This document shows positions 34 through 47,944 of a stretch of 50,971 nucleotides of DNA, piece by piece. Made by a program: the position numbers and the translations under genes. How positions within the stretch are numbered: position 1 is the stretch's first letter; each line of letters starts with the position of its first letter. The stretch is from the NCBI GenBank assembly GCA_026987955.1, contig JALSME010000013.1, forward strand, positions 1 to 50,971, in the 5' to 3' direction. Below the pieces are notes generated by a model. The model searched no databases. It was not told the origin of the DNA and was given only the letters and a program-made list of their open reading frames with translations. The stretch is from Sulfurospirillum sp. GTDB lineage: Bacteria; Campylobacterota; Campylobacteria; Campylobacterales; Sulfurospirillaceae.

Positions 34-1011
34 TTAATGTCCCCTGCTTAAAACTTTTGCTACCTCTTTTGCATGATAGCTTATGATGATATCCGCACCA
101 GCTCGTTTAAATGCGAGCATTGTTTCCATCATCACTCTTTCATAGTCAATAACTCCAGCTTTTCCTGCTGCTTTTAGCATTGCATACTCTCCACTTACAT
201 TGTAGATTGCCATTGGAGTTGAAGTTGCATCTTTTATCTCTCTTATGATATCCAAGTATGCAAGAGCTGGTTTTACCATAAGTATATCTGCTCCTTGCAT
301 CTCATCCTCAATACTCTCTGCAATCGCTTCTCTTCTGTTTGCTGGGTCCATCTGGTAGCTTCTTCTATCTCCAAAACTAGGAGCAGATTCAGCTACATCA
401 CGAAAAGGTCCGTAGTATGCACTAGCAAACTTTGTAGAGTAACTCATGATAGGCAAGTTCTCAAATCCAGCCATATCTAGTCCCTCTCTAAGAACTTCTA
501 TAGTCCCATCCATCATGCCACTTGGTGCTATCATGTCAACTCCAGCTTTTGCATGTATGAGTGCTTGGTCTGTTAGTATCTCCAAAGTTGCATCATTGTT
601 AACTGTCTCATGTTCCATATCTAGTATGCCACAATGCCCATGATCTGTAAACTCACAAAAACATAAATCTGAAACTACAAACATATCTGGATACTCTTTT
701 TTTATAGCTTTTATAGCACTTGCTATGATCCCATGCTCACAAAGTGCATCACTTCCTATGCTGTCTTTTACAGCAGGGATTCCAAAAAGTATAATTGAGT
801 TTAGCCCCATCTCTTGTAGAACTTTACACTCTTTTAAAATTTCATCTATACTCATCTGAAAAACACCTGGCATAGAGCCTATCTCTTTTTTGATTCCCTC
901 GCCACTTTTAACAAAAAGTGGATATATAAAATCCTCTACATGTAGAGATGTTTCTCTTACTAAATCTCTTAAATTTTTATTAATTCTTAATCTTCTAAAT
1001 CGTTTAAACAT
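34..1011 (-). CDS. hemB: porphobilinogen synthase (ALA dehydratase)
   Basis: [14 protein letters not shown] zinc motif, [29 protein letters not shown]. Confidence 0.97.
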
Positions 1012-1067
1012 TCTTTTGTCCTTTTAAAGGTATAATTAAAAAATACATTTTACCATAAAGATTATAA

Positions 1068-1631
1068 ATGCGAATTAATATTTCAAATATTGCAAAATTA
1101 CCTACTAGATTTGGAGATTTTAAAATCCAAAGCTTTGCTGAGGGCATCAAAGAACACTTGGTGATTTTCAAAGAACCAATAGGCGATATTCCTTTAGTTA
1201 GGGTCCATAGCGAGTGTCTAACAGGAGATGCAATAGGAAGTCTAAAGTGTGACTGTCGAGATCAGCTAGAGTATGCCCTAAAAGCAATTAGTAATGAAAG
1301 TGGGATGGTTATATACCTGCGTCAGGAGGGAAGAAACATAGGACTTCTAAATAAAGTAAATGCCTATGCCTTGCAAGACAAGGGGCTAAACACAGTTGCT
1401 GCAAACCACCAACTTGGGTTTAAAACTGATGAGAGAAGTTATGAGGTTGTGGAGTTTATACTAGAACATTTTGGAGTAAAATCCATAAAACTTCTAACAA
1501 ACAATCCAAAAAAGATAGAATCTCTAAACGATATAAAAATTGTAGAACGCCGTCCAATTGTTATAGAATCAAATCGACACAATGAAGAGTACCTAAAAAC
1601 CAAAAAAGAGCAGATGGGACATATGTTATAA
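1068..1631 (+). CDS. ribA: GTP cyclohydrolase II
   Basis: VRVHSECLTGD, SLKCDC, RQEGRNIGL, LLTNNPKK motifs. Confidence 0.97.
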   Translation: MRINISNIAKLPTRFGDFKIQSFAEGIKEHLVIFKEPIGDIPLVRVHSECLTGDAIGSLKCDCRDQLEYALKAISNESGMVIYLRQEGRNIGLLNKVNAYALQDKGLNTVAANHQLGFKTDERSYEVVEFILEHFGVKSIKLLTNNPKKIESLNDIKIVERRPIVIESNRHNEEYLKTKKEQMGHML

Positions 1632-2176
1632 TGATAGATGATAAATATAAAGTTTTTATAGAGCTTATTTTAAAATACAACAAGATTCATAACATTACTG
1701 GTGCAAAAGATAGGGCCTCTGTGATTGAAAATATAGAAGACAGTATATATCCTATCAGTTTTTTAGAAACAAAAAGTATAAAAACTGCCATTGACATCGG
1801 AACGGGAGCAGGTTTTCCTGGTCTTATTTTAGCTATGGAACTTCCTAATACCCAGTTTACACTTTTTGAGCCCATTGCAAAAAAGAGCTCTTTTTTACAC
1901 CTAGTAAAGACAACTTTAGGACTTAAAAATGTAAAAGTTTCAACAAAAAGAGTAGAGCAAGAAGAGGGTTTTGAAGTTGATCTTATAACTTCAAGAGCAG
2001 TAACTAACACAGATATGTTAATAAATTTATGTAAAGAGTACATAACCCCTAAGACAAATCTTCTTTTTTACAAAGGTGAGAGAGTTGTTGAAGAAATTTC
2101 AAACATTAAAAACTATAAAATATATAAAAAAGAGAGAAGAAATTACCTTCTCATAAAGGATATAGATGCTATTTAA
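1631..2176 (+). CDS. rsmG: 16S rRNA m7G527 methyltransferase
   Basis: NKIHNITG, DIGTGAGFPG SAM motif, ITSRAV, YKG. Confidence 0.95.
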   Translation: MIDDKYKVFIELILKYNKIHNITGAKDRASVIENIEDSIYPISFLETKSIKTAIDIGTGAGFPGLILAMELPNTQFTLFEPIAKKSSFLHLVKTTLGLKNVKVSTKRVEQEEGFEVDLITSRAVTNTDMLINLCKEYITPKTNLLFYKGERVVEEISNIKNYKIYKKERRNYLLIKDIDAI

Positions 2177-2396
2177 ATTTTTGTTACTTGTTGGTATATT
2201 TTTTGCGATATATATAATTTTTTTCAAAAGATCAAAAAAAGAGGTGTCTAACGAAAGAAAAAAGAAAAGTAAATCAACTCCAAAAGGTGATATCATGATG
2301 GAGTGTGAAAAGTGTGAAACATTTGTAAGCGAAGATGAAGCTATTATTAAAGATGGTAAATTTTACTGTTCAAAGCAGTGTGCAGGGATTAAATAA
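2166..2396 (+). CDS. PP0621-like small membrane protein with Cys-rich tail
   Basis: N-terminal hydrophobic helix, MMECEKCETFV...FYCSKQC; overlaps rsmG end. Confidence 0.8.
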   Translation: MLFKFLLLVGIFFAIYIIFFKRSKKEVSNERKKKSKSTPKGDIMMECEKCETFVSEDEAIIKDGKFYCSKQCAGIK

Positions 2397-2659
2397 TGAG
2401 ACCACTGCACAGTAAGAACACCCACAATATCAAGAGGTTTTGTATAGACAAGGCAATTGATTGCAGGACTAACTGGTTAGTTCAAGAACAATTAACGAAG
2501 TATATGCGAAACCTCTTGATACCCATAGGGAAGCTTAGTTTTAGGCAATCTTTAAAAGATAAAAGTTTTCGAATTAACAAGTTAGTCCTTCAAATTTTAT
2601 ATTTCAAATCTCACCCAAAACTAAGCTTTTGTGGGTGTACTTACTGTGCGGTGGTCTCA
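2397..2659. mobile_element. 263-bp MITE-like structured element
   Basis: 31-bp terminal inverted repeats (2397-2427 / 2629-2659, 2 mismatches), flanked by TAA on both sides (or ATAAT if the ends are 2398/2658); no transposase. Confidence 0.85.
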
Positions 2660-2661
2660 TA

Positions 2662-3042
2662 ATGATTATTATTGGTCATGAGCTTATACCGTATAGTCCG
2701 CTATATAAAGTTTCATCTAAAGATGAGATACAAAAGACAGTACCCAACTCAACCATTTTTATGAACTTTTCTCATATAAAATTGGCCAAATATGCACTAT
2801 CTCAAGATATCAATATAGCTCTACATGTAGAGGGTATAAAAGAGGCTTGCTTAGCAAATGCTCTTGGTGCCAAATATATTACTGTAGAAGACAATATTGC
2901 AAAAAGCATCCAAGCACTTGCAACTGAGTATCTTTTTGATTCTAAAATACTATTACTCGTGGAAGATGAAAGTGGTATCGAAGTTGCTGCTAAAAGCTAT
3001 ATTGATGGCATCTTACTATCAAAAGCTATAGTAGTAGTTTAA
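2662..3042 (+). CDS. hypothetical protein (probable start MIIIGHELIP)
   Basis: ATG at 2662 overlaps TAA; the longer 2629 start lies inside the inverted repeat. Confidence 0.75.
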   Translation: MIIIGHELIPYSPLYKVSSKDEIQKTVPNSTIFMNFSHIKLAKYALSQDINIALHVEGIKEACLANALGAKYITVEDNIAKSIQALATEYLFDSKILLLVEDESGIEVAAKSYIDGILLSKAIVVV

Positions 3043-5409: not shown

Positions 5410-5784
5410 GTGAGGTCAATGGTGTCACTAGAATTAATTCTTGCTTCTTCTATTATACTTGTGTTAGTAGTTACTATTCCTACGCTTTTTGTTTTATCAA
5501 ATAAGCTTGGACCTAACTCTAAAGGCAATAAAGAGAAGAATCTTTCATATGAAAGCGGTATTACAAACCCAATTGGGAGTTGTGATAGCCGTTTTAGCGT
5601 TAAGTTTTATTTAGTTGCTATAATTTTTGTACTTTTTGATGTAGAAATTATGTTTATGTTTCCATGGGCAGTAAATGTACGAGAACTTGGCTTTTTTGGA
5701 CTTGGTGAGATGTTTACCTTTATGGGTCTTCTCGTTGCTGGTCTTATTTATGTTTACCGTATAGGGGCTCTCAAATGGCAATAG
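5410..5784 (+). CDS. nuoA: NADH-quinone oxidoreductase subunit A (start may be 5419)
   Basis: [27 protein letters not shown]. Confidence 0.95.
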
Positions 5785-6296
5785 GTGCAGAAGCAGTTTT
5801 TGGAGATAGTGTTGTTACCACAAAGCTAGATAGTGCTATAAGTTGGGCTCGTGAGTCCTCTATGTGGCCATATATATTTGGTACAGCGTGTTGTGCAATA
5901 GAGTTTATGAGTGTAGCTTCAAGTAAATTTGATATCTCAAGATTTGGTGCAGAAGTTGTAAGATTTTCACCAAGACAGGCAGATCTCTTAATCGTTGCTG
6001 GAACTATTACATACAAACAAGCTCCTATTCTTAAACGAATTTATGACCAAATGACTGAACCAAAATGGGTTGTTAGTATGGGTGCATGTGCTTGTAGTGG
6101 AGGATTTTATGATAACTACACAACACTTCAAGGCATAGATTCTATCATACCTGTTGATGTATATGTAGCTGGTTGCCCTCCTCGACCTGAAGCTCTTATT
6201 GATGCACTCATACAAATTCAAGAAAAACAGAAGCAAGAAGAATCAATCATTAAAGATAGAGTAAATAGAGATTTTAAAGGACGGCTAGATGTGTAG
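5775..6296 (+). CDS. nuoB: complex I subunit B
   Basis: [26 protein letters not shown] (N2 cluster). Confidence 0.97.
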
Positions 6297-7965
6297 CTGC
6301 TTTGAAGAAAAATTTAAAGGTCTTTTTAAAAAAGATAAAAATAATATATATGTGATTGACCAGACATTTGTTAAGGCGATGATAAAGTGCCTTAAAGAGA
6401 AAGATGGTTTTCATTTTCTAGCTGATATTACAGCTATTGACTACTCAACATTTAACAAACCCACCCCTTCTCGTTTTGCAGTTGTGTATATACTTCGAGA
6501 TAAAGAGTTTAAAAATGTGATTACACTTAAAGCATTTATAGATGAGGAAGAGGGTCTACATGTAGAGAGTATTACAGAGCTTTTTGTCTCAGCGGATTGG
6601 GCTGAGCGAGAAGTTTGGGATCAGTATGGTATAAAATTTATAAATCATCCAAATCTTAAAAGAGTTTTAAATCATAAAGAGTTTGTTGGTCACCCTCTAA
6701 GAAAAGACTACCCAAAAACAAAAGGTCAACTCTGTACAAAAACAGATGATCTTATGGATGAGATGATTCCAATTTTAGAAAAAAGTGGATTTAAATCTCA
6801 CGATGACTTAATGTTTCTAAACCTTGGTCCTGCACACCCTGCTAGCCACGGAACGATTAGAAACTTTGTTGCACTTGATGGAGAAACTATAGTTGCAGCC
6901 GTAAGTGAAATTGGGTATCTTCATAGAGGATTTGAAAAGTCATGTGAAGACCATACCTACAACCAGATTATACCTTATACTGACAGGCTAAATTACTGCT
7001 CGGCTATACTAAACAATATCGCTTTTTCTCACGCAGTAGAGGGTATGCTTGATGTTACCATTCCTGAGCGAGCACAATTTATACGAGTTATTATAGGTGA
7101 GCTTTCACGCATTATTGATCACTTGGTATGTTTAGCTGCAAACCTTGTTGATATGGGTGCACTTACAAACTACTGGTATCTTTACAACCCAAGGGAGGAT
7201 GTATATGATCTGCTTTCTAAACTAACAGGTGCTAGACTTACCAACTCATATATGCGTATTGGTGGAGTGGCACATGATTTTTATGATGGCTTTGAAGATG
7301 ATTTAAAGGGCTGTATAACATCAATTGAAAAAGGTATGTCAGACACGCTTGGACTCATTGAGCACAATAGAATTTTTCATGATAGAACACAAAACATAGG
7401 TATTGTAACTGCCCAAGATGCAATAAACTATGGTTTTACAGGACCAAACCTAAGAGCTAGTGGTGTTGCATATGATCTAAGAAAAACTGACCCTTACTAT
7501 TTTTATGATGCACTCGATTTTGATATTGCTGTTGGTAGTGTTGGTGATGTATATGATAGGATGATGGTAAGATTTGAAGAGATAAGACAGAGTATTAGAA
7601 TTATTAACCAATCTATGAAAATACTGCCAAAAGGCGATATTATAGTCAATGACCATGCTATTGCACTTCCTAAAAAAGAGAATGTCTATGGCAATATAGA
7701 GGGACTTATGAATCAATTTAAACTTACAATTGATGGTGTAAAAGTTCCCTCCAAAGAGTATTATAGAGCAGTTGAAGGGGCTAATGGAGAACTTGGGTTT
7801 TTTATTGTTAGTGATGGCAGTGGTACACCATATAAAGTCAAAGTTCGTCCTCCATGTTTTCCTGCAATGGCTGCACTACCAATAATGCTTAAGGGACACA
7901 TGCTTGCTGATTCTGTTCTTTGTTTAGGAAGCCTTAACATTATTGCTGGAGAGTTAGATAGATGA
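6289..7965 (+). CDS. nuoCD: fused complex I subunit C/D
   Basis: NuoC motifs ([17 protein letters not shown]) followed by NuoD motifs ([24 protein letters not shown]). Confidence 0.95.
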
Positions 7966-8435
7966 GTGAATTTAAATTTTCAAAACAGAACAAAGAGAAG
8001 TACAATGAGCTTCTAAAAAAATACCCAAATAAGGCATCTCTAACCCTTCCTTTGCTCTGGATGGTTCAATATCAAGAGGGATGGATAAGTGAAGATGCGA
8101 TGATTTATATAGCAGATAAACTTGGAACTTCCGCTATGGATATACAAAGTATAGCATCTTTTTATACTATGTTTAATCTAAAGCCTGTTGGTAAATACAA
8201 CATACAAGTCTGTAAAACACTCTCATGCAAACTCTGTGGAAGTGAAAAAATCAGAACACACCTACAAAATAGGCTTGGTATAAAATTTGGTGAGACCACA
8301 AAAGACATGAAATTTACACTTAGTGAAGTTGAGTGTTTAGGAGCATGCGGAGAAGCACCTGCTATGAGCTTAAATGATGACTATGTTGGTGATTTAACAG
8401 TGGAAAAAATAGATAAGATATTGGATGAGCTATGA
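7962..8435 (+). CDS. nuoE: complex I subunit E (2Fe-2S)
   Basis: FYTMF, VCKTLSC, ECLGAC. Confidence 0.95.
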   Translation: MSEFKFSKQNKEKYNELLKKYPNKASLTLPLLWMVQYQEGWISEDAMIYIADKLGTSAMDIQSIASFYTMFNLKPVGKYNIQVCKTLSCKLCGSEKIRTHLQNRLGIKFGETTKDMKFTLSEVECLGACGEAPAMSLNDDYVGDLTVEKIDKILDEL

Positions 8436-9682
8436 TAGTTAAGATAGTAAGTAAAAATTTTGATATAGAGAATTCTCATAAACTAAGTGTTGCCCTTAAA
8501 CATGACAGATATAGCTCACTAAAAAAACTTTTTGCTATGAGTCCTGATGAAGTTACAAACGAAGTTACTAAAAGTGGGCTAAGAGGTAAAGGTGGTGGTG
8601 GTGCACCTACAGGAGAGAAGTGGAAGTTGATGCCCAAAAACCATGATAAACCATCTTACCTTGTTGTAAATGCAGATGAGAGTGAACCTGGGACCTTTAA
8701 AGATAGACAGATTATGGAGTATGACCCACATCTTTTAATCGAAGGTATAATTAACTCTTCATATGCAATAGGAGCTAATAGTGCATACATATATATTCGA
8801 GGGGAGTATGTATTTTGGGCTAAAAGGCTTAATGAAGCCATTGAAGAAGCATATGAAGCAGGATACCTTGGTGAAAAAGTTGCTGGGTACGACTACAAAC
8901 TTGATATAGTTGTTCACCGTGGTGCTGGTGCATATATCTGTGGTGAAAAAAGTGCTCTTCTTGAATCACTAGAGGGTAAACGAGGCCACCCAAGATTAAA
9001 ACCTCAACAAAAAGAGCCTGAGTGGTTTTTTGGAGGACCAACTGTTGTAAATAATGTTGAAACAATTGCTAGTGTTCCATACATAATCAACAATGGCTAT
9101 GAAGCTTACCGTGCATATGGAACCGAACAGAGTCCAGGAACTATGCTTTTTGGCATGAGTGGACATATAGAAAATCCTGGCATTTATGAGCTACCATTTG
9201 GAACTAGAATGAAAGATGTTTTAGAAAAAATTGGTGGTGGAGTAAAGGGTGGGAAAAAACTAAAAGCACTAATACCAGGTGGTTCATCTTGCCATGTTCT
9301 TAAGGCTGAAGAGATTGAAGATATCACATTAGACTATGAATCATTAAGAAAACATGGCTCAAGTTTGGGAACTGGCGGTATGATAATAATGGATGAAGAT
9401 ACTTTTATGCCAGAAGCGATGAAGAATCTTTTTGAATTTTACCATCATGAGAGTTGTGGTCAATGTACCCCTTGTCGTGAGGGCTGTGGCTGGGTTGATA
9501 AGATATTAGCTAAACTGCTAAGTGGAAATGGTACTAAAAAAGATTATGATACAATATTTGATGCTTGTGAAATGCTAAATGGAAAAACAATCTGTGTTTT
9601 TGCTCCCTCAGTTGCTTTTATTGCAAATAGTTATATAACTAAATTTAAAGATGAGTTTTATAGCCTATGCAAAAAAGATTAA
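8432..9682 (+). CDS. nuoF: complex I flavoprotein subunit F
   Basis: NADESEPGTFKDR, GAGAYICGE, VNNVET, ESCGQCTPCREG...C. Confidence 0.95.
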   Translation: MIVKIVSKNFDIENSHKLSVALKHDRYSSLKKLFAMSPDEVTNEVTKSGLRGKGGGGAPTGEKWKLMPKNHDKPSYLVVNADESEPGTFKDRQIMEYDPHLLIEGIINSSYAIGANSAYIYIRGEYVFWAKRLNEAIEEAYEAGYLGEKVAGYDYKLDIVVHRGAGAYICGEKSALLESLEGKRGHPRLKPQQKEPEWFFGGPTVVNNVETIASVPYIINNGYEAYRAYGTEQSPGTMLFGMSGHIENPGIYELPFGTRMKDVLEKIGGGVKGGKKLKALIPGGSSCHVLKAEEIEDITLDYESLRKHGSSLGTGGMIIMDEDTFMPEAMKNLFEFYHHESCGQCTPCREGCGWVDKILAKLLSGNGTKKDYDTIFDACEMLNGKTICVFAPSVAFIANSYITKFKDEFYSLCKKD

Positions 9683-10311
9683 AAGAGATATGTCTATTTG
9701 GCCTGCTTAATGATAAGCAGCTAGATAGACTAAGCAACATAAGCACAATCAAAAAATATGCGTCGGGGAATATACTGTTTTATGAGGGGGATGAGCCTAA
9801 AAATTTATATTTTTTAATTGATGGTCTAATTAAGATATATAGATATAATAAAAATGACAATATAAATATATTGAGTTATTACTACTCTCAAGCTCTTATA
9901 GGTGAAGCAGCAACACTTCAAAGAACGCCTCACCAAGTTACAGCAGAGTGTGAGACAAATTGTAGTGTTCTTGTTGTATCTTTTAATGAATTTGAAAAAG
10001 AGTTTTTAAGAAATCCTGATGTGGCTATTGGAATTATTATGCAGCTTGTCACAAAAGTAAAACAGCTTATGAATACTAACATGCAGCAAACTTCCATGCA
10101 GAAACTTGCATCCTTAATATTTGAAAATCATGAACTTTTTTCCAAATTAAAAAAATATAAAATTGCTGAAATTTTAAATATGGCACCAGAAACATTTTCA
10201 AGAAATTTAAAAAAACTGCAAGCTGATGGAATTATATATTATGATACAAATCATCTTGAGATAAAAGACAAGATAGCCCTTAAAGAGCTATTTGCCTGCT
10301 GTTCGATCTAA
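9667..10311 (+). CDS. Crp/Fnr family transcriptional regulator
   Basis: LFYEGD cNMP-like domain, GEAA, IAEILNMAPETFSR recognition helix. Confidence 0.92.
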   Translation: MQKRLKEICLFGLLNDKQLDRLSNISTIKKYASGNILFYEGDEPKNLYFLIDGLIKIYRYNKNDNINILSYYYSQALIGEAATLQRTPHQVTAECETNCSVLVVSFNEFEKEFLRNPDVAIGIIMQLVTKVKQLMNTNMQQTSMQKLASLIFENHELFSKLKKYKIAEILNMAPETFSRNLKKLQADGIIYYDTNHLEIKDKIALKELFACCSI

Positions 10312-10317
10312 AAAAAC

Positions 10318-11820
10318 TTATCCAACAAATAGTGATTCATACGACAATTTAGCCATATCAATAAGTAAATCAACACCAGGAAAATATGCAACAAGCGTAT
10401 TTCCAACACCACCCCAGATAATAGCAAGTGCAATAAATGCAATCACTACAGGAGCAACTCCTTTTAGTGGAGGAACATTTGTCATCTCTGCACTTCTGTA
10501 AAAATACATAATAGCAATAAGTTTAAAATAGTAATATACCGATATAAAAGTAGCAATAATTCCAACTACTGCTAATATGGTATTTCCAGCTTCTATGGCA
10601 CCTGTAAAAATATAGAACTTTCCGATAAACCCGATAGTAGATGGAATACCAGCTAAAGAAAGCATAAATATACTAAGCATTGCAGCCATATATGGTCTTA
10701 TTTTAGCAAAGCCTCTAAAATCATCATATGTAATTCTAAGATGATCATCAGATGAAATATATGCAATCAAACCAAAAGCTCCTACTGCAGATAAAAAGTA
10801 AGCTACAAGATAGAATATAATTGAGCTTGCTCCACTCTCACCGAGTGCACTTATAGATGTAAATGCAATTAAAAGATAACCTGTATGAACAATACTTGAT
10901 GCTACAAGCATTCTTTTTAAAGATTTTTGAATAATAGCTAAAAAACTACCATATGCAAGAGTAAGGATAATTACATACACAAGTGCATCATCCCAAAAAT
11001 CACGAATAAGATCAAAATCTACTATAAACAGTCTAAGAACAAAACCAAAAATAGCTGCTTTAAATGTAGCTGCCATATAGGCAGTTACAGGCAGAGGTGC
11101 TCCACTATAAACATCTATTGCCCAATTTTGAAAAGGAAATGCTGCAATTTTAAATAAAAATGTAATCAAAATCATAGTTCCACCTATGATAAGTAGGTTC
11201 ATATTTGTTGCGAATGTATTAAGTGACATATCGCCAATTGTTCCAATTGTTGTTGTTCCTGTTGCACCATAGACAAATGATGTTCCTAAAAGAAAGAATA
11301 CACCAGCGAGTGAACCCAGTACCAAGTATCTATAGCTTGCTTCAATCCGCTTTGAAATTACTTTTTCAAAACCAATCATAACATAGAGTGATATAGATGC
11401 AATTTCAAGTGCAACAAATGCACTTATTAGTTCGTTTGCATGAACTAAAAGCATCATTCCAAAAACTGAAAAGAGAAAAAGAGAAAAAAACTCAACAGTA
11501 AACTCTTTATGTTTTTCAAAATAGTGTATTCCTATAAGTATAGTTAGTATAGCACCAAGTATTAAAATAGTACTAAAATAGCTTGCATATGTATCAACAA
11601 TAATCATCTTATTGAAGATATCTATAAACGGATAGTGTGAATACACTTCATCCCCAGTATTTAGATTATACAAGTTTGAAATAAACGCCATTGAAAGAAA
11701 CACCAATGTAGTTATTGAGCCTTTTCTTATAGTAACACTTTTAAATGTACTAACTATCATAAGTGATATAGCACCTAATCCTACAAAAAATAGAGGCAAT
11801 ACATATATAAAATCTATCAT
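10318..11820 (-). CDS. nuoN: complex I subunit N
   Basis: ALEIAS, FKIAAFPF..W..DVYSGAP, SLAGIPSTIGFIGKF. Confidence 0.95.
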   Translation of the reverse strand: MIDFIYVLPLFFVGLGAISLMIVSTFKSVTIRKGSITTLVFLSMAFISNLYNLNTGDEVYSHYPFIDIFNKMIIVDTYASYFSTILILGAILTILIGIHYFEKHKEFTVEFFSLFLFSVFGMMLLVHANELISAFVALEIASISLYVMIGFEKVISKRIEASYRYLVLGSLAGVFFLLGTSFVYGATGTTTIGTIGDMSLNTFATNMNLLIIGGTMILITFLFKIAAFPFQNWAIDVYSGAPLPVTAYMAATFKAAIFGFVLRLFIVDFDLIRDFWDDALVYVIILTLAYGSFLAIIQKSLKRMLVASSIVHTGYLLIAFTSISALGESGASSIIFYLVAYFLSAVGAFGLIAYISSDDHLRITYDDFRGFAKIRPYMAAMLSIFMLSLAGIPSTIGFIGKFYIFTGAIEAGNTILAVVGIIATFISVYYYFKLIAIMYFYRSAEMTNVPPLKGVAPVVIAFIALAIIWGGVGNTLVAYFPGVDLLIDMAKLSYESLFVG

Positions 11821-13296: not shown

Positions 13297-13299
13297 AAT

Positions 13300-15186
13300 C
13301 TACCTCATCACTATAATTAAATATGTAGATATAACACTTATACCCATAAGCATTGAAAACGCATACATTCTTGTGTTTGCACTTTGTAATCTTGCAACTA
13401 CATTACCACTTCTTATAAAGCCATTGGATATTCCCATTACAATTTTATCAATAAAATTTATATCTAATTTATAAGATATAAATATACTTAATTTTTTTAA
13501 TTTATCTACAAATATTCTGTCATATATCTCATCTATATAAAACTTATTCCAAATCAGACCTGTATATTCAGGTACTTTACTCATATCGTAATTAAAGAAT
13601 TTTTTATATGCAATTAATAATCCAATAACTGCGGCTAAAATATTCAGTCCCATAAGATATAATTCTATAGAGTGCTCTACATGTAGAGCCTTACTATTCA
13701 AAATCTCAAGCCATATCCCAATATAATTTTGACCTCCCAATAACAAAGGAACACCAATAAATCCTGCCAGTATTGACCCTATCGCCAATATCACTAATGG
13801 CATTGTCATATTTTTTGAAAGAGAGTGCAGCTCTCTATTCTCCTTGTAGTTTGAGCCATGAAAAACAACAAACAGAAGTCTAAACATATAATATGCTGTC
13901 AAAACTGCCGTAATAACTCCAATAATCCAAATAAAATATTCACCTGAGCCAAATGCTGTTAATAAAATCTCATCTTTACTAAAGAAACCTGCAAATGGTG
14001 GAATTCCTGCTATTGCAAGTGTTGCTATTAGCATTGTAAAATAGACTAATGGAGTTTTTCTTCTCATACCACCCATTTTAAATATATTTTGTTCATGATG
14101 AAGTGCTACTATTACTGCGCCTGCTCCCATAAAAAGCAGTGCTTTAAAAAATGCATGTGTAAATACATGAAATATTCCTGCACTGTAACCACCAAGTCCA
14201 ACAGCTATAAACATATAACCAAGCTGACTCATTGTAGAGTATGCGAGTATTTTTTTAATATCAGTCTGTTTTGTTGCAATAATAGCAGCAAAAAGAGCTG
14301 AAAATGCTCCAATATAGGCTATAAAAAGACCTACATTGGGAATCATATCGTAAAGGAAATGAAACCTTGCTACCATATAAACGCCAGCAGTTACCATTGT
14401 TGCAGCATGAATTAGAGCTGAAACAGGAGTTGGTCCAGCCATAGCATCTGGCAACCAAACAAAAAGTGGAATTTGTGCTGATTTTCCAATTGCACCAATA
14501 AGCAGAGCCAACCCAATAAAACTTAAAACTTCTACAGGTACATTTGCCATACCCAGTTCTAAATTGATATAATCAAAACCATTGCTTCCTGCATAATAAA
14601 ACATTGTAATCATAGCAATAATAAAACCCAAATCACCAACACGATTTGCAATAAATGCTTTATTTCCTGCTTTTACATTTTCACTATCTTGATAGTAGTA
14701 GCTAATCAAAAGATATGAACAAACTCCAACACCTTCCCAACCGATAAACATAATAATTGGACTATTTGCTAAAACCAAAAGTAACATTGATGCTAAAAAA
14801 AGATTGAAATAGAAGAAAAACTTTCCATATCCATCATCATCTTTCATATAGCCTGATGCATATATGTGTATTAATCCACCTACAAAAGTGATAAAAAGAA
14901 CCATAAATATGGAGAGTTGATCAGCCATAAAGCCCATGTCTATGTCATAGCCATCAACACTTAGCCACTTATAAGCTCTATATATAATCACATCACTGTT
15001 TTCTAATAATCTAAAGAAAAATGATACTCCTAATACAAAACTAATAAATGGTGCAGTAAGTGCAAACATAGAAAAAACAATATTTGGAATTTTAGTTACT
15101 TTTATTGAGTAAAGGTACATAGTTCCTAATATTAATGAACTTAGAAGTGGAACCAAAACAATCCACGCTAATAAGAAGTTATCCAT
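13300..15186 (-). CDS. nuoL: complex I subunit L
   Basis: GWEGVG, GKSAQIPLFVWLPDAMAGPTPVSALIHAATMV, HAFFKA. Confidence 0.97.
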   Translation of the reverse strand: MDNFLLAWIVLVPLLSSLILGTMYLYSIKVTKIPNIVFSMFALTAPFISFVLGVSFFFRLLENSDVIIYRAYKWLSVDGYDIDMGFMADQLSIFMVLFITFVGGLIHIYASGYMKDDDGYGKFFFYFNLFLASMLLLVLANSPIIMFIGWEGVGVCSYLLISYYYQDSENVKAGNKAFIANRVGDLGFIIAMITMFYYAGSNGFDYINLELGMANVPVEVLSFIGLALLIGAIGKSAQIPLFVWLPDAMAGPTPVSALIHAATMVTAGVYMVARFHFLYDMIPNVGLFIAYIGAFSALFAAIIATKQTDIKKILAYSTMSQLGYMFIAVGLGGYSAGIFHVFTHAFFKALLFMGAGAVIVALHHEQNIFKMGGMRRKTPLVYFTMLIATLAIAGIPPFAGFFSKDEILLTAFGSGEYFIWIIGVITAVLTAYYMFRLLFVVFHGSNYKENRELHSLSKNMTMPLVILAIGSILAGFIGVPLLLGGQNYIGIWLEILNSKALHVEHSIELYLMGLNILAAVIGLLIAYKKFFNYDMSKVPEYTGLIWNKFYIDEIYDRIFVDKLKKLSIFISYKLDINFIDKIVMGISNGFIRSGNVVARLQSANTRMYAFSMLMGISVISTYLIIVMR

Positions 15187-16504: not shown

Positions 16505-16506
16505 AT

Positions 16507-17790: not shown

Positions 17791-19301
17791 AAGCTACTCA
17801 TTTTTATAGACTCTTTTTTTATATCTTCTAAATCAATATTCTTTATAATACTTGTTAAACTTTTATCCCAAATATCTCTACATGTAGAGCTTTGCTCTTC
17901 TAAAACAGTTGTTACTATATCACAAAGACTTTGTGTTTGTGTACCATATTCCACATGAGTTTTATGAAATTGTAAATAACCATCTATATTTATAAATGAG
18001 CCTTCCCTACTCATATGTGTTTTCATCGGAAGAAATAGGTCATATATCTCAGCACTTTTAGGCATAGATGCATTTATAGATACTTTAACACTAATATTTT
18101 TGTACTTATCAAATCCGCTAGCATCATCTCTACCTATAAGAATTAGCATTTCTGAACCACTAGCATACTCAACTAGATTGGCTTCTTTATCATCAATATC
18201 TAAAAGATTAAATCCTCTTCTATTGGTTGAAAGGTCACTACACTTTAAGTAATCGTCGCCAAACTTTGGATCATGCTCATTAATATCATATCCACTTATT
18301 TTTGCATCATAATATTTAGCGAGTCTCTTTACCTCTACCATCTCTTCTAAAGATAGTGATGGTGAGAGCAGAAATAGTGCCTTTCCATGGTGCCTTTTTA
18401 AAAGTCTAACTAACTTTCCTGTTGCATACTCATGCTCACTCTCGTTACCTCGTATCTGTGCATATGAATCTCTGTTTTTATTTTCTATTTTATAGCTAAG
18501 TCTACCATCGTCACAAATAAAGTAGCCATTTACTCTATCATTGTATCTAGGTCTGTATCTAAAAATTGTATCATCCTCATACTTTGCTTTATGGTGATCA
18601 ACATATATTGAACAACCTTTTGAGCAACCATTACATATGCCTTCATCTGGTTTTAAAAACCAAACTCTTTTATGAAAACGAAAATCACTGCTTGTAAGTG
18701 CTCCGACCGGACATAAATCAACAACATTCATAGCATATGGATTTGAAAGAGGTTTACCAGGAAAAGTAGTTATAACAGAGTGATCAGTTCTATTTAAAAC
18801 TCCTAACTCTTTTGTTTTAGTTATATCTTTTGTAAATCTTACACATCTAGTACACAAAACACAACGCTCTTGATCTAGTACAACATTTGCACCAATATCA
18901 ACATGCTTCTGTCCTCTAGTTTTTGTAGTACTTAGCCTACTCTCATAAAGGCCAACATCCATATAGTAGTTTTGCAAAGAGCATTCACCTGCTTGATCAC
19001 AAACTGGACAGTCGATTGGGTGATTAATAAGTTCCATCTCGAGAATTTGCCGTTTAACTCTTTGTATACTATCACTTTTGGTACGAATAACCATACCATC
19101 CTTAATAGGTGTATCACAAGCTATTTGTGGGCGCTTCTTTCCTTCGATTTCAACCATACACATTCTACAATTTCCATCTTTACCTAGAGCTGGATGGTAA
19201 CAAAAATGTGGTATTTCTATACCATTTGCCAAGAGTTCCTCTATCAATAAAGCATCATCTTTAACTTTTATCTCTACATCGTCAACGGTTATTGTTGCCA
19301 T
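17787..19301 (-). CDS. nuoG: complex I subunit G, short form
   Basis: CYH...GNCRMC, HPIDCPVCDQAGEC, CVLCTRC, CPVGAL, CNGCSKGC. Confidence 0.93.
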   Translation of the reverse strand: MATITVDDVEIKVKDDALLIEELLANGIEIPHFCYHPALGKDGNCRMCMVEIEGKKRPQIACDTPIKDGMVIRTKSDSIQRVKRQILEMELINHPIDCPVCDQAGECSLQNYYMDVGLYESRLSTTKTRGQKHVDIGANVVLDQERCVLCTRCVRFTKDITKTKELGVLNRTDHSVITTFPGKPLSNPYAMNVVDLCPVGALTSSDFRFHKRVWFLKPDEGICNGCSKGCSIYVDHHKAKYEDDTIFRYRPRYNDRVNGYFICDDGRLSYKIENKNRDSYAQIRGNESEHEYATGKLVRLLKRHHGKALFLLSPSLSLEEMVEVKRLAKYYDAKISGYDINEHDPKFGDDYLKCSDLSTNRRGFNLLDIDDKEANLVEYASGSEMLILIGRDDASGFDKYKNISVKVSINASMPKSAEIYDLFLPMKTHMSREGSFINIDGYLQFHKTHVEYGTQTQSLCDIVTTVLEEQSSTCRDIWDKSLTSIIKNIDLEDIKKESIKMSSL

Positions 19302-19471
19302 AAGTTGAAAACCTTACATAAGAAAATTGTATAATTTTACCCCTATCAAACTTTAAAGTAGCTGTTAAATAAACTCTTAATAAGAAATTAAACCTGAATT
19401 ATGTAATAAGCTAAATTAGATCGTATGATTTAGGATGGGTATATAGCAGAAATTATGTAAAATTTAAATAG

Positions 19472-19548: not shown

Positions 19549-19560
19549 AAAAATTGGAGT

Positions 19561-22678: not shown

Positions 22679-22706
22679 CTCTACATGTAAAGCTCTACAT
22701 GTAAAC
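22679..22706. repeat. two tandem copies of the CTCTACATGTAGAG-type palindrome
   Basis: ctctacatgtaaag ctctacatgtaaac back to back upstream of rpsL. Confidence 0.85.
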
Positions 22707-22791: not shown

Positions 22792-31478
<8,687 letters not shown>

Positions 31479-31972: not shown

Positions 31973-32135
31973 TTTATATCCTATATATTTTATTTCTTCT
32001 TTTACCCGAACAAGTCCAAGTAAAATTCATATCATCTAAAGCTACGGCTAATGCCGAGAAAATCGCTCTACATGTAGAGGTTTTCTGCTTACCTAAAATT
32101 TTATAGTCTATCTATTTCTTTAAATAATAAAGAAA

Positions 32136-36923: not shown

Positions 36924-37676
36924 ATGAAGATACTATTCTCTCCAAGTGAAGCAAAGTCCGATTTTTCAGACTTTAAAGCTATAAATAAAAATTCTATGCT
37001 TTTTCCTGAACTTTTTGAAAAAAGATTATATGTTATTAATAAATTAAACTTTTTTTTAAAAAATAGTAAGCATGCTAATATCACAAAATTCTTTGGAATA
37101 AAAGATGAGGAAGAGTTAAAAAAACTTGCATCACTTGATCTTTTAGATGCACCTACCTGTAAAGCTATATATAGGTACACAGGAGTTGCCTACAAATACC
37201 TTGATTTTCATAGTTTAGACTCAATTCAAAAAGATTGGCTTGAAAAAAACACAATAATATTTTCAAATCTTTTTGGACCACTTCTAGCAAAAGACTATAT
37301 ACCATATTATCGTTTTAAGCAAGCCTCATCGCTAGAAGGTTTTAAGCCAGAAATTTATTATAAAGAAAATTTTTCCGATAGACTTGATGATTTTATTGAC
37401 TCAGAGCTAGTTATAGACCTTAGGGCTGGTTTTTATGAAAAATTCTATAAGCTAACATCTAAACATATAACTATGAAATTTATTAAAAATGGTAAAGTAG
37501 TCAGCCACTGGGCAAAAGCATACAGAGGTTTAGTATTAAGAGAGTTAGCAAAACAGCAACCAAGTACTATTGAAGAATTTGATATGATTGATTTTAAAGG
37601 TCTACATGTAAAAGAGATTATAGATAAAAAATCTAGAAGAGAGTATATATTTGATATCGTACAAGACAAAGAGTAG
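36924..37676 (+). CDS. yaaA: YaaA/DUF328 family protein
   Basis: ILFSPSEAK, AIYRYTGVAY, SNLFG, SHWAKAYRG. Confidence 0.88.
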   Translation: MKILFSPSEAKSDFSDFKAINKNSMLFPELFEKRLYVINKLNFFLKNSKHANITKFFGIKDEEELKKLASLDLLDAPTCKAIYRYTGVAYKYLDFHSLDSIQKDWLEKNTIIFSNLFGPLLAKDYIPYYRFKQASSLEGFKPEIYYKENFSDRLDDFIDSELVIDLRAGFYEKFYKLTSKHITMKFIKNGKVVSHWAKAYRGLVLRELAKQQPSTIEEFDMIDFKGLHVKEIIDKKSRREYIFDIVQDKE

Positions 37677-41408: not shown

Positions 41409-42122
41409 CTACTTTTTTTTACCTAAATAGGCCTCTTGAATAACAGTTGAATTCAACAGCTCTTTACTTGTTCCTTCATGTGTTATTTTTCCCAATTCTA
41501 AAACATATCCCCTATCTGCCAACTTCAAAGCTGCTTTTGCATTTTGTTCCACTAGCAAAACTGTAACTCCTGTTGAGCTAATCTCCTTAATTGCTTTAAA
41601 AATACTCTTTACCAAAACAGGAGCAAGTCCTAGGCTTGGCTCATCTAGTATTAGCAATTTAGGTTTACTCATAATAGCTCTTCCAATTGCAAGCATCTGC
41701 TGTTCTCCACCACTTAAAGTTCCTGCTAGCTGCTGCTCACGCTCTTTAAGTCTAGGTAGTATCTCATATATCCATTCCAATGTTTTTATATCATGAGTCT
41801 TTAGTGTATATGCCCCCATAAGAAGATTTTCTTCAACGCTAAGTGTTCCAAAAACTTTTCGTCCCTCAGGAGAGTGACTCATACCAAGTCTAACTATATC
41901 ATGAGCTGGAACTTTTGTGATTTCTTGTCCATCAAAAAGTATATTGCCTTTTGTTGATTTTAAAAGACCACTGATTGTTCTTAGCGTAGTTGTCTTACCA
42001 GCACCATTTGCTCCAAGAATCGTAACAACTTCACCCTTGTTTACATACAAATCAATGCCTTTTATAGCTTTTATTGCACCATAACCTACATGTAAGTCTT
42101 TTACTTCTAGTAGTTTACTCAT
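41409..42122 (-). CDS. livF: HAAT (liv-type) ABC ATPase
   Basis: GANGAGKTT, PEGR, LSGGEQQM, LDEPSLGLAP. Confidence 0.93.
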   Translation of the reverse strand: MSKLLEVKDLHVGYGAIKAIKGIDLYVNKGEVVTILGANGAGKTTTLRTISGLLKSTKGNILFDGQEITKVPAHDIVRLGMSHSPEGRKVFGTLSVEENLLMGAYTLKTHDIKTLEWIYEILPRLKEREQQLAGTLSGGEQQMLAIGRAIMSKPKLLILDEPSLGLAPVLVKSIFKAIKEISSTGVTVLLVEQNAKAALKLADRGYVLELGKITHEGTSKELLNSTVIQEAYLGKKK

Positions 42123-46178: not shown

Positions 46179-46215
46179 TTTATTAAAGCTACTCTACATG
46201 TAGACTTAATAAAGC

Positions 46216-46860
46216 TTACTTTTTTTGGACTATATAACAGCCTACTAGCCACTCTCCACTACCTTCAATCTTGTGAATTTTACTACTAACAAAGTTTGAC
46301 TTTAAAGATGGAAACTTTTTTATAACAACATTAAAGCTTTTAATCAAATCTGGTATTCTCTTTTCTAGTTTTTTTCTTGCATTTTGTGATAAATCAGAAT
46401 AAAAACTAAAAAGCCCATACTCTAGAGAAGTTTTACAATCTAGCATCTTGCAAATAACTTCTATGTTATCTAAATACTCTAGTTTTGAATTTCTAACTCC
46501 ATTCTTCACAGATATTATGACTTTTGAAATAGAATCTTCATTATCTTGATGTTCAAATCTTTCATCTAAAGTTATACTAAATGTACCCTGTTTTAACTTT
46601 CTATTTTTCATATATGTAGTATATGCATTTCTATCTGGCAAGGAACACCTCAAAATATCTCCTATAGTGGCATCTATAAAAATCTCTGGAGCATTTCTCA
46701 TTGCTGCAATCTCTTGAGCAATATGAATAGAGATTATCTTATCAGGTCCATGTGATAAAAAAAGTCTGTCATTTGTCCAGTTAAGAAAATTTTGTACTGA
46801 TTTAGTCATTCCTGACAAAACTGCACTAACAATCTGTTTCTGGTCTGGAAATTTAGTCAT
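46216..46860 (-). CDS. hypothetical protein (start MTKFPD)
   Basis: 214-aa ORF whose start overlaps the stop of the upstream gene. Confidence 0.75.
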   Translation of the reverse strand: MTKFPDQKQIVSAVLSGMTKSVQNFLNWTNDRLFLSHGPDKIISIHIAQEIAAMRNAPEIFIDATIGDILRCSLPDRNAYTTYMKNRKLKQGTFSITLDERFEHQDNEDSISKVIISVKNGVRNSKLEYLDNIEVICKMLDCKTSLEYGLFSFYSDLSQNARKKLEKRIPDLIKSFNVVIKKFPSLKSNFVSSKIHKIEGSGEWLVGCYIVQKK

Positions 46861-47074
46861 GATAATTTTCCTCAACTTCCTCTACTATACCACTCTCAAA
46901 TAAAATGTCTTCTATAAGTCTGTTTTTTGATATATTTAACGAATTAGAAAGTTTACTAAGAGCATCATCTAGCTTAGAGTCTATTTTTATTGTCAACTGA
47001 GATATTTGTCGTTTTTTTCTACTCTTTTCAATAACACTCTTAATAATTTCATTGCCAAATTTTTGTTTTGCCAA
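46853..47074 (-). CDS. ribbon-helix-helix-like DNA-binding protein
   Basis: QLTIKIDSKLDDALSKLSNSLNISKNRLIEDIL strand-helix-helix pattern; TTG start with AAAGG RBS. Confidence 0.7.
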   Translation of the reverse strand: MAKQKFGNEIIKSVIEKSRKKRQISQLTIKIDSKLDDALSKLSNSLNISKNRLIEDILFESGIVEEVEENYHD

Positions 47075-47308
47075 AATATACCTTTTGCTATATTTAAAAA
47101 AAGGAATACTAAAAAAACTACCTTTTCTTTGCTAAAATATAGTATAGTTTATTGAGAGGAAACTGAAAAAAAAAATTTAAAAAGAATAAAATGTAACACT
47201 TTTCTGAAACTTTCTTAAAAAATACCCTACCTATAGGCTTTTTTCAATTAAAGTTTATTTTAATTAAAATTAAAAAAAATTCTATAATTGCTACTTTATG
47301 TAACATAC

Positions 47309-47944
47309 TTATCTAATTAAAATAAGTTTCTTACTATCTCTTTTTTTAAATTTATTATATGCAGGAAGATTTATTTTATTTATCTTTCTTTGTCTTTTGT
47401 AGTTTTCTAGCTGATAAAATCCATACTCATTAAACATAAAAACTACTTTAAGGTCTACTCTTTTATCTATTGGTAAAACTTTAGTGCTAAGATTGTCTAA
47501 AACTAAAAATGAGTTATTATGCTCTACATGTAAAGACAGTACCATATGGTCACCTCCTGTGTACTTATCTTTAACAACACTCATGTACATAGTCTTTGAA
47601 GATACACCAAGCATTTTCAAAGAATACATTTTGGCTATGACATAATCTTCACAATCTCCACTGGCATTTGAAAAAAACTCAAATGGAGTTGCCCAATACT
47701 CATCACTGCTGTAATTATAGGCATCATACTTAGGGATTATACTGTTTATATAATGATTTACTTTTTCGACTTTTGTTTTCTCATCATCATTTTTTATACT
47801 ATTTAAAAAGTCAACATAGTGTTTTATAATTTTATAGCTTCTTGAGTCTATTTTTAATTTATCTAAATAATATGGATTTATATAAAACTCTTCTGCAACT
47901 ATAGAGTTTACAAAAAAAGCCAATAAAAGTGCTATTTTAAACAT
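47309..47944 (-). CDS. transglutaminase-like cysteine peptidase (BTLCP/LapG-like)
   Basis: signal peptide, YWATPFEF, GDCEDYVIAK, HMVL, VLDN. Confidence 0.9.
   Translation of the reverse strand: MFKIALLLAFFVNSIVAEEFYINPYYLDKLKIDSRSYKIIKHYVDFLNSIKNDDEKTKVEKVNHYINSIIPKYDAYNYSSDEYWATPFEFFSNASGDCEDYVIAKMYSLKMLGVSSKTMYMSVVKDKYTGGDHMVLSLHVEHNNSFLVLDNLSTKVLPIDKRVDLKVVFMFNEYGFYQLENYKRQRKINKINLPAYNKFKKRDSKKLILIR

What the first reader, a model, noticed from the sequence alone, without database searches (positions are those of the whole stretch)
934..47535. Highly iterated 14-bp palindrome CTCTACATGTAGAG (HIP1- or uptake-sequence-like) in a Campylobacterota genome
Seen: exact copies at 934-947, 2819-2832, 13675-13688, 17876-17889 and 32066-32079. 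One-mismatch copies at 6554, 22679, 46192 and 47522. More degenerate copies that keep the TACATGTA core at 22693, 37600 and 42084. That is about one per 4 kb. A rough estimate at about one-third GC gives on the order of 1e-4 exact copies per window by chance. In genes the motif is read as x-L-H-V-(E/K/G) in seven unrelated proteins (HemB, the 2662 protein, NuoCD, NuoL, YaaA, LivF, BTLCP) and as S-T-C-R in NuoG. Four copies are non-coding, so the signal acts at DNA level and not only through protein. Known: cyanobacterial HIP1 and Neisseria/Pasteurellaceae uptake sequences behave this way, and CATG is a common m6A target in this phylum. Inference: a genome-wide signal linked to methylation, DNA uptake, recombination or nucleoid protein binding. 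I do not recall one being described for this lineage.
Basis: partly seen in the sequence, partly recalled or inferred. Interest (0 to 1): 0.88.

Follow-up and report, generated by a model that had tools for sequence, protein, structure and literature searches.

The report
Iterated palindrome dialects in sulfur Campylobacterales
A 14-letter palindrome is written hundreds of times through this sulfur bacterium's genome, even at the cost of rewriting its proteins, as the local form of an 8-letter word shared by two bacterial families; it likely acts as a methyl-marked "own DNA" tag favoured during DNA uptake, which would link the unexplained HIP1 repeats of cyanobacteria to the known methylation-dependent DNA uptake of Campylobacter.

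Summary
Real and genome-wide: 163 exact CTCTACATGTAGAG in 1.97 Mb (about 0.04 expected); 138 coding copies against 2.5 after synonymous shuffling; LHVE 157 times against 4.4. It is a lineage dialect of the octamer TACATGTA, iterated up to 1,780 times in Sulfurospirillaceae and in 38 of 201 Sulfurimonadaceae, and in none of 204 other sampled Campylobacterales. The scan noted this octamer before in other genomes. New here: copies arise by substitution; spacer copies crowd into convergent gene ends as long hairpins and avoid divergent spacers; abundance tracks an orphan HpyI/NlaIII-family methyltransferase (28 of 38 rich genomes, 6 of 44 poor), and published methylomes show m6A-CATG in two species; relatives iterate other words (TATCATGATA, non-palindromic CTCACGCA, and AAATTT/TAAATTTA in C. 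concisus, a form of the RAATTY word C. jejuni needs for uptake). Best reading: an uptake or transformation tag spread by molecular drive (0.5). Against: no reader protein found, competence genes occur in word-poor genomes too, five closed word-rich genomes lack the enzyme, and no uptake test exists. Not found in the papers searched.

The parts
934..947 (.). exact 14-mer inside hemB, read as S-L-H-V-E
2819..2832 (.). exact 14-mer inside the 2662-3042 ORF, read as A-L-H-V-E
6554..6567 (.). one-mismatch copy inside fused nuoCD, G-L-H-V-E
13675..13688 (.). exact 14-mer inside nuoL, A-L-H-V-E
17876..17889 (.). exact 14-mer inside nuoG, S-T-C-R; the orthologous site holds the core in 3 of 5 relatives, with their own flanks
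22679..22706 (.). head-to-tail pair of copies in the rpoC-rpsL spacer; predicted 11-bp RNA stem on the transcribed strand (z -1.1, not significant alone)
24712..24725 (.).
27679..27692 (.). TACATGTA core inside the conserved G-Y-M-Y-M of rpoB; protein-constrained, also present in a word-poor genome
32066..32079 (.). exact 14-mer in the rplJ-rplL spacer, at the centre of a predicted longer hairpin (z -2.0)
37600..37613 (.). degenerate copy (core intact) inside yaaA, G-L-H-V-K
42084..42097 (.). degenerate copy (core intact) inside livF, D-L-H-V-G
46192..46205 (.). one-mismatch copy 10 bp after the stop of the 46216-46875 ORF, inside a predicted hairpin (z -1.5)
47522..47535 (.). one-mismatch copy inside the LapG-like cysteine protease gene; read on the minus strand as S-L-H-V-E

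Best explanation
The palindrome is this lineage's extension of the octamer TACATGTA, which is spread over the whole chromosome by base substitution and is likely a DNA-uptake (transformation) tag, likely read best when its central CATG carries the m6A mark of an orphan methyltransferase. Shown: abundance, strict core, origin by substitution, protein rewriting, even chromosomal spread, lineage dialects, and the association with the enzyme family. The reader protein is not identified.
For: Hallmarks shared with DUS/USS: about one core per 1.6-4 kb in rich genomes; even spread round closed chromosomes and across contigs (chi-square 85 on 86 contigs); encoded peptides enriched 35-50 fold; fewest sites in the most conserved genes (3 in 52.8 kb at >=70% identity, 41 in 135 kb at 45-70%); spacer copies 23 in 8.2 kb of convergent spacers against 4 in 27 kb of divergent ones, arms of >=10 bp in 13 of 25 spacer copies against 6 of 137 coding copies; dialects between relatives, imposed on the same site with amino-acid change (LHVE here, LHVK in G006/G008), including a non-palindromic word CTCACGCA in 3 of 201 genomes with no replichore bias and 0 copies in a 20-kb sample of a second replicon against 39 in 80 kb of chromosome. 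Methylation link: enzyme in 28 of 38 word-rich and 6 of 44 word-poor Sulfurimonadaceae, 10 of 17 against 4 of 30 within one genus; in Sulfurospirillum median 672 12-mers with it (16 genomes) against 164 without (9), with at least two separate enzyme-less, word-poor branches beside word-rich sisters; m6A-CATG detected by SMRT in S. barnesii (99.1%, no cognate nuclease listed) and S. denitrificans (44.9%) (PMC4752239 tables S3/S4), and one aligned enzyme is on record as an S. denitrificans protein. The three genomes richest in TATCATGATA also carry the enzyme. Precedent in the same order: C. jejuni imports only DNA methylated at RAATTY (PMC10046745, passages), and a C. concisus locus has AAATTT 155 times in 21 kb against 17 by base composition and TAAATTTA 28 against 1.9. 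The enzyme alone is not enough: 50 loci outside Campylobacterota and two H. pylori loci show no CATG-centred word.
Against: No uptake experiment exists for these genera in the papers searched. No reader: the FimT-like pilin (76 of 80 genomes), the PilW-like minor pilin (75 of 80), ComEC and DprA (5 of 5) occur in word-rich and word-poor genomes alike and their similarity does not follow the word. Five closed genomes with 611-737 octamers lack the enzyme (G177, G414, G436, G438, G440), and no shared substitute turned up in four Pfam families; G021, G105 and G090 have the enzyme and no word. This assembly lacks the enzyme at its ancestral site. Known DUS/USS are not palindromes and show an excess of one-mismatch copies (PMC1939737, passages); here one-mismatch octamers are at background. 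Close pairs are only modestly in excess here (15 against 7.4, maximum 18 in 1000 draws) and not in three other samples. One plasmid and two viral contigs carry the word at near-host density. Kin are not independent, so the Fisher tests overstate.
Confidence: 0.5

Rival explanations
1. The word acts inside the cell on recombining or repaired DNA: a methyl-dependent or strict-sequence enzyme favours alleles with the site during homologous recombination or repair (Chi-like or Elhai's ratchet), so sites accumulate without any uptake bias.
For: All-or-none specificity of the core looks enzyme-like; association with the methyltransferase; HIP1 raises integration when homologous and is proposed to act partly like Chi (10.1101/2024.09.10.611283, abstract and introduction); long-resident plasmid and phage DNA carry the word.
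Against: No MutL or MutS1 signature in six frames, only a MutS2-sized protein (motifs recalled), so mismatch-repair ratcheting lacks its machine; no small GIY-YIG Ssn nuclease in G000, G055 or G058; the non-palindromic sister word has no replichore polarity, unlike Chi.
Confidence: 0.22
2. The word is the binding site of an abundant dimeric nucleoid or chromosome-organising protein, kept by selection on chromosome structure; methylation modulates binding.
For: Perfect 14-bp palindrome with graded outer positions suits a dimer; it persists in genomes without the enzyme.
Against: No confinement to origin or terminus as for parS or matS; spacing is not more even than random (CV 1.09 against 0.98); divergent promoter spacers are avoided; sister lineages with RpoB about 2% apart differ tenfold in copy number and most families lack any such word, which is hard to square with an essential structural role; one-mismatch cores are not tolerated as they usually are by such proteins.
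Confidence: 0.15
3. The word is selected as an RNA hairpin (terminator or processing signal) and coding copies are a by-product.
For: Strong excess in convergent spacers and extended arms; predicted hairpins at three window spacers.
Against: 138 of 163 copies are inside genes, where they change amino acids and have no extended arms; a hairpin needs no fixed sequence; the non-palindromic dialect cannot fold alone.
Confidence: 0.04
4. The copies are excision footprints of an IS630/Tc1-type transposon that duplicates TA and leaves TA-CATG-TA.
For: The words TA-CATG-TA, TA-TCATGA-TA and TA-AATT-TA all have the TA-x-TA form; the lead came from an earlier scan note on a diatom.
Against: 247 of 264 site-to-ortholog comparisons at 82 sites are gap-free; orthologs differ by substitutions, not by a 6-bp insertion; an 8-bp footprint could not sit in frame in G134's genes.
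Confidence: 0.02

Closest known systems
HIP1 (GCGATCGC) and alternate HIPs of cyanobacteria (PMC4390886 passages; PMC13756078 abstract; 10.1101/2024.09.10.611283 first quarter)
   Same: Palindromic octamer at hundreds of copies per Mb, mostly in genes, arising by substitution, with palindromic lineage-specific extensions, replaced by other words in some relatives, centred on the 4-bp target of an orphan m6A methyltransferase, with a few word-rich genomes lacking the enzyme.
   Different: Different word and phylum; AT-rich, no second (m5C) enzyme found; no excess of one-off octamers; clear bias to convergent gene ends; one sister word is not a palindrome; no MutL/MutS1 signature.
DUS of Neisseriaceae and USS of Pasteurellaceae (PMC2817400, 10.1101/2025.10.24.684340, PMC1939737 passages; PMC12616744 abstract)
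   Same: Density, chromosome-wide spread without polarity, enriched encoded peptides and frame bias, use in terminator-type hairpins, dialects between relatives.
   Different: Palindromic; tied to a methyltransferase; one-mismatch cores not in excess; peptide enrichment far stronger (35-50 fold against about 2 fold for tripeptides there); no receptor or uptake assay.
CtsM/RAATTY-dependent DNA uptake of Campylobacter jejuni (PMC10046745 and PMC8627207 passages; original paper not held)
   Same: Same order, same type of secretin/pilus uptake machinery, palindromic signal centred on an orphan m6A target; a related Campylobacter iterates AAATTT/TAAATTTA.
   Different: There the signal is a degenerate 6-mer with tens of thousands of sites and a different enzyme; here an 8- to 14-mer; function shown there, inferred here.
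M.HpyI / M.NlaIII family CATG methyltransferases
   Same: The associated enzyme is 50% identical to the H. pylori protein; m6A-CATG is reported in two species of these families.
   Different: In C. concisus it sits behind an NlaIII-type nuclease and CATG is avoided; in word-rich lineages no such nuclease was seen beside it.

Membership tests
Highly iterated palindromes (HIP1 type) | Palindromic oligomer far above Markov expectation, genome-wide | tested here: met
Highly iterated palindromes (HIP1 type) | Sequence GCGATCGC in a cyanobacterium (HIP1 proper) | tested here: not met
   word is TACATGTA in Sulfurospirillaceae
Highly iterated palindromes (HIP1 type) | Arises by nucleotide substitution, not insertion | tested here: met
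   247 of 264 comparisons gap-free
Highly iterated palindromes (HIP1 type) | A methyltransferase for a word inside the palindrome is generally present | tested here: met
   28 of 38 rich against 6 of 44 poor genomes; not in this assembly, possibly in part of its population
Highly iterated palindromes (HIP1 type) | Excess of one-off sequences at the outer positions | tested here: not met
   one-mismatch octamers at Markov background; graded tolerance only outside the octamer
Highly iterated palindromes (HIP1 type) | Quasi-periodic spacing | tested here: inconclusive
   CV 1.09 against 0.98 on a 143-contig assembly; no full site list from a closed genome
DNA uptake sequences (DUS/USS) | Hundreds to thousands of copies, chromosome-wide, no orientation bias | tested here: met
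DNA uptake sequences (DUS/USS) | Encoded peptides enriched, frame bias | tested here: met
   frames 110/28/0; LHVE 157 against 4.4
DNA uptake sequences (DUS/USS) | Spacer copies in terminator-type hairpins | tested here: met
   (position and arm length); transcript ends not tested
DNA uptake sequences (DUS/USS) | Dialects between related species | tested here: met
DNA uptake sequences (DUS/USS) | Non-palindromic word | tested here: not met
   perfect palindrome; only the sister word CTCACGCA is non-palindromic
DNA uptake sequences (DUS/USS) | Scarce in plasmids, phages and recently gained DNA | tested here: inconclusive
   0 in one plasmid-like sample, 6 per 20 kb in another, 7-8 in two viral contigs; glycan and nos contigs of G000 have none but contig counts are not overdispersed
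DNA uptake sequences (DUS/USS) | Sequence-specific minor-pilin receptor (ComP, ComN) | tested here: inconclusive
   minor pilins present but do not follow the word
DNA uptake sequences (DUS/USS) | Site increases DNA binding, uptake or transformation | not testable with these tools
   needs an uptake assay
Regional chromosome sites (matS, parS, SlmA/Noc sites; features recalled) | Confined to or excluded from origin or terminus region | tested here: not met
   forward-strand sites from 0.08 to 2.85 Mb of the closed 2.86-Mb G006; first 100 of 245 sites cover 42% of closed G055
IS630/Tc1-mariner excision footprints | Short insertion at a TA relative to orthologs | tested here: not met
Ssn-related motifs (PMC11893778 passages) | Single-domain GIY-YIG ssn gene in the genome | tested here: not met
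   only a 600-aa UvrC-sized hit in G000, G055, G058; a 94-aa hit in G177 not followed

The most novel reading that the evidence does not exclude
Campylobacterales run one order-wide self-DNA recognition system in which the competence pilus reads a methylated palindrome, and the word has been re-coded lineage by lineage: RAATTY/TAAATTTA in Campylobacter, TACATGTA and its 14-bp extension here, TATCATGATA in others, and an enzyme-free non-palindromic CTCACGCA in one Sulfurimonas clade. HIP-type repeats and DUS-type uptake sequences would then be two ends of one process, with the intermediate states all present in culturable relatives.
Probability: 0.3. Interest if true: 0.88.

Novelty: new variant of a known kind. 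Interest (0 to 1): 0.7.

Why it matters
Here close, culturable, non-pathogenic relatives differ in presence, copy number and spelling of such a word and in presence of its methyltransferase, so uptake, recombination and nucleoid models can be told apart by simple assays and by comparing reader candidates between dialects. If the uptake reading holds, adding the methylated word should also make these sulfur- and organohalide-respiring bacteria easier to transform. The signal visibly rewrites proteins (about 150 extra LHVE peptides), which matters for codon, selection and binning analyses in this group.

Tried and rejected
Literature: full-text searches for CTACATGTAG, TTACATGTAA (11), Sulfurospirillum + palindrome/overrepresented/uptake sequence (12), TACATGTA + Campylobacter (21), TAAATTTA + Campylobacter (62), CtsM/RAATTY/overrepresented (63) and Sulfurospirillum/Sulfurimonas + natural transformation/methylome (117) listed no paper describing this word; only listings were read for these hits, and subscription journals and bioRxiv supplements are not covered. 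The original CtsM paper was not held. Reader hunt: FimT-like pilin, PilW-like pilin, ComEC, DprA and the recG-linked minor-pilin cluster do not separate word-rich from word-poor genomes; the recG-linked cluster is not in this assembly, where recG runs off a contig end. Substitute methyltransferases in enzyme-less rich genomes: only type I/III-like subunits, none shared. Apparent words in G374 (CCATCATA), G248 and G027 were a repetitive gene and tandem repeats, dropped. The 177-aa hydrolase beside some enzyme copies is only 24-26% like the G000 protein at a contig end, so that synteny lead was dropped. Nine Sulfurimonadaceae with 80-172 octamers (3 with the enzyme) were left out of the Fisher test; hits near 35% identity or E above 1e-70 were scored as a different family; G072 was not tested. 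Decay relics in G058 were too few to read. No RNA holder was listed for the window, so terminators were not tested on transcripts. Rfam finds only six tRNAs in the window. The consensus terminator scan did not call the spacer copies between 21500 and 33000. Gene calls for G000 come from my own dicodon script (2041 genes), so spacer counts are approximate.


Full report
Observation. The genome (G000, 1.97 Mb, 143 contigs, 33% G+C) holds 163 exact 14-mers against about 0.04 under an order-4 Markov model; the 14-mer and its overlaps are the top words at k = 8, 10, 12 and 14. There are 106 one-mismatch copies, 48 of them CTT for CTC at the third position and only 9 within the central octamer. EF-Tu, L1 and L11 clusters place the genome in Sulfurospirillaceae, near S. 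arcachonense.

It is a DNA-level signal that rewrites proteins. By my gene exact copies are coding and 25 in spacers (spacers are about 6% of the genome); frames are 110 (x-L-H-V-E), 28 (S-T-C-R) and 0. Shuffling synonymous codons gives 2.5 copies; LHVE occurs 157 times against 4.4 and STCR 36 against 0.7; 223 of 333 LHV use CTA-CAT-GTA. At 82 sites with orthologs among my loci, 247 of 264 comparisons are gap-free, with changes such as IMSIEVKGK to IMSLHVKGK; sites shared with relatives carry each lineage's own flanks (LHVE here, LHVK in G006 and G008). So sites arise by substitution, which rejects a transposon footprint (a lead from an earlier scan note). Sites are scarce in the most conserved genes and in the most codon-optimised and the most AT-rich ones. 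Single-mismatch octamers are at background.

Placement. Contig counts are Poisson-like. In closed relatives the sites run round the whole chromosome (G006) or track length evenly over the part listed (G055). Among spacer octamers, 23 lie in 8.2 kb of convergent spacers and 4 in 27 kb of divergent ones; 13 of 25 exact spacer copies have palindromic arms of 10 bp or more, against 6 of 137 coding copies. Pairs under 60 bp apart are modestly in excess here (15 against 7.4) but not in three other samples. This fits secondary use in terminator-type hairpins, as described for DUS/USS (10.1101/2025.10.24.684340, passages), and argues against a promoter-binding regulator.

Distribution. The shared unit is TACATGTA. 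In 251 sampled genomes of the order it reaches 109-1,727 copies in 22 of 24 Sulfurospirillaceae (G017 28, G021 27), 232-850 in 4 of 23 genomes of family f16, and at most 45 in the other 204. In 201 genomes of f16 (Sulfurimonadaceae), 38 have 200-1,780 copies; genera g85, g86, g87 and g97 are all rich, g62 nearly all, g21 patchy (17 of 95), g70, g79, g81 and g88 none. Flanks differ by lineage: exact CTC..GAG copies are 163 here and 0-39 in 40 relatives, most of which use (C/T)TT..AA(A/G).

Other words in word-poor relatives. Samples of 20-84 kb showed TATCATGATA (G134 1,549 copies, G017 166, G255 93, all others at most 51 of 251) and the non-palindromic CTCACGCA (G039 962, G131 759, G118 630, next highest 133 of 201), the latter coding, unpolarised on both replichores and absent from a 20-kb sample of G039's second replicon. 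A named C. concisus locus has AAATTT 155 times in 21 kb (17 by composition; TTTAAA 72, AATATT 11) and TAAATTTA 28 times against 1.9; CTAAATTTAG reaches 64-204 copies in 16 of 23 genomes of family f12 and at most 44 elsewhere. That f12 is Campylobacteraceae is my inference; its genus g32 shows only 20-33 copies against controls of 11-25. AAATTT is a form of RAATTY, which C. jejuni requires in methylated form for uptake (PMC10046745 and PMC8627207, passages). Several word-poor samples (G021, G374, G329, G105, G090 and others) showed no clear dispersed word.

The methyltransferase. Blow et al. list m6A-CATG in S. barnesii (M.Sba3II, 99.1%, no cognate nuclease given) and S. denitrificans (M.SdeAIII, 44.9%) (PMC4752239, supplement rows only). 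A D12-class family 50% identical to the H. pylori protein includes a protein on record as S. denitrificans ABB43411.1, from a genome with 527 octamers; that it is M.SdeAIII is inferred from its neighbours. No NlaIII-type nuclease was seen beside it in word-rich genomes. It is present in 28 of 38 rich and 6 of 44 poor f16 genomes, 10 of 17 against 4 of 30 within g21, and in genus g3 the 16 carriers have a median of 672 12-mers against 164 for the 9 without; on an RpoB tree of 41 genomes enzyme-less, word-poor branches (G058/G073/G064; G071) sit beside rich sisters. These tests overstate because kin are not independent. The enzyme is not sufficient: none of 50 loci outside Campylobacterota (of 69 loci of 8 kb or more, from 80 fetched) has more than two copies of any CATG-centred palindromic octamer, CATG being avoided there; H. 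pylori has 9 octamers in its genome and C. concisus, where the gene follows an NlaIII-type nuclease, 5. Nor is it necessary: five closed genomes with 611-737 octamers lack it and share no substitute in the Pfam families tried.

This genome. tblastn finds no such enzyme in G000, though 11 of 13 genomes of its genus have it. At the slot before trmA used by its closest relatives G000 has two unrelated genes in mid-contig; but the second slot, before folP (used by G010, G001, G003), falls exactly in the gap between contigs C54 and C119. In a public run holding this DNA the contigs on both sides (depth 280 and 256) stop at the same places; a 241-base piece (depth 120) joins the C54 end, and a 4,155-base piece (depth 165) carries a gene about 80% like the G010 enzyme followed by the start of folP; a second study shows the same two pieces at 25 and 10 against flanks of 42-46. 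I infer that the enzyme is present in part of the population; the piece could also belong to a relative in the same samples.

Mechanism. G000 has a secretin/ExeA/PilB/PilC operon with minor pilins, an intact ComEC frame and DprA. The signal meets the sequence hallmarks of uptake sequences (PMC2817400, passages) and of HIPs (PMC4390886, passages), HIP1 itself improves transformation in a methylation-dependent way (10.1101/2024.09.10.611283, first quarter read; PMC13756078, abstract), and the one tested member of this order selects donor DNA by a methylated palindrome. I therefore put an uptake or transformation tag spread by molecular drive first (0.5). The steps from site to reader to biased import are inferred. 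No candidate reader follows the word, and competence genes are as common in word-poor genomes. An intracellular recombination or repair bias (0.22) fits the strict core but lacks MutL/MutS1 signatures and an Ssn nuclease. A nucleoid protein site (0.15) fits the 14-bp symmetry but not the tenfold differences between sister lineages. About 0.07 is left for causes not listed.

Novelty. Seven full-text searches found no description of the word (open-access library only). The scan itself reported the octamer three times before in other genomes as a HIP1 counterpart; two further look-ups found no note on the methyltransferase link or on the other dialects. It works like a HIP and, by inference, like a DUS; it is not HIP1 and cannot be filed as an uptake sequence until uptake is measured. 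Verdict: real, a new variant of a known kind, interest 0.7.

Noticed in passing
window 5410-21695; G000 contig C131 (L061): The window holds a complex I set with fused NuoCD and a 504-aa NuoG, split into two convergent halves; a second, epsilon-type nuo cluster lies on C131 and has no octamer in 16 kb (4 expected).
   Followed up: no
G000 gap between C54:1 and C119:1 (L308, L292): Public contigs show two alternative pieces at this gap, 241 bases and 4,155 bases, the longer with a CATG-type methyltransferase and about 2.9 kb of unseen sequence; likely a polymorphic cassette.
   Followed up: partly
G039, G118, G131 (L112, L113, L170, L171): Non-palindromic octamer CTCACGCA iterated 630-962 times in three Sulfurimonas genomes that lack TACATGTA; one inverted pair at L112:18335-18388. 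The closest look-alike of a classical DUS seen here.
   Followed up: partly
G134, G017, G255 (L176, L310, L107-L109): Second CATG-centred palindrome (C)TATCATGATA(G), 1,549 copies in G134.
   Followed up: partly
L238 (C. concisus) and family f12: AAATTT about nine times above composition and TAAATTTA/CTAAATTTAG enriched; matches the RAATTY target of CtsM.
   Followed up: partly
G000 C122:6053-6766 (L064); L082, L093, L099: A FimT/GspH-like minor pilin is present in 76 of 80 genomes, highly variable in its middle, and lies beside a 16S rRNA gene in the three closed genomes checked, which explains why it often ends contigs.
   Followed up: partly
G000 whole genome; L030-L032, L036-L040, L011: ACGT is almost absent (observed/expected 0.09 in G000; 0-3 per 15-20 kb in several relatives) while sister genomes have 20-90 per locus; cause unknown.
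   Followed up: no
G000 whole genome: GCAATTGC is mildly enriched (113 against 31), and AGTCGCGAGGAATT occurs 20 times; neither was examined.
   Followed up: no
L126; plasmid NZ_CP059996.1: A Sulfurospirillum diekertiae plasmid carries a second copy of the CATG-type methyltransferase; the 20-kb plasmid-like sample L126 has 6 octamers.
   Followed up: partly
L442, L390: Two viral contigs hold 7 and 8 octamers in 12-13 kb; dispersed in L442, clustered in L390.
   Followed up: no
L224 (Dokdonia sp.), L302 (G392), L301 (G428): Further over-represented words in single samples: TCGCGAAA/TTCGCGAA, AATCCATC and AGCATCTA; may be local repeats.
   Followed up: no
L110:9800-18700 (G374): A very long, methionine-rich repetitive reading frame.
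   Followed up: no
G000 C36:14230-15093 (L050): The only C5-methyltransferase hit is a short protein that looks Dnmt2-like (label recalled, not tested).
   Followed up: no
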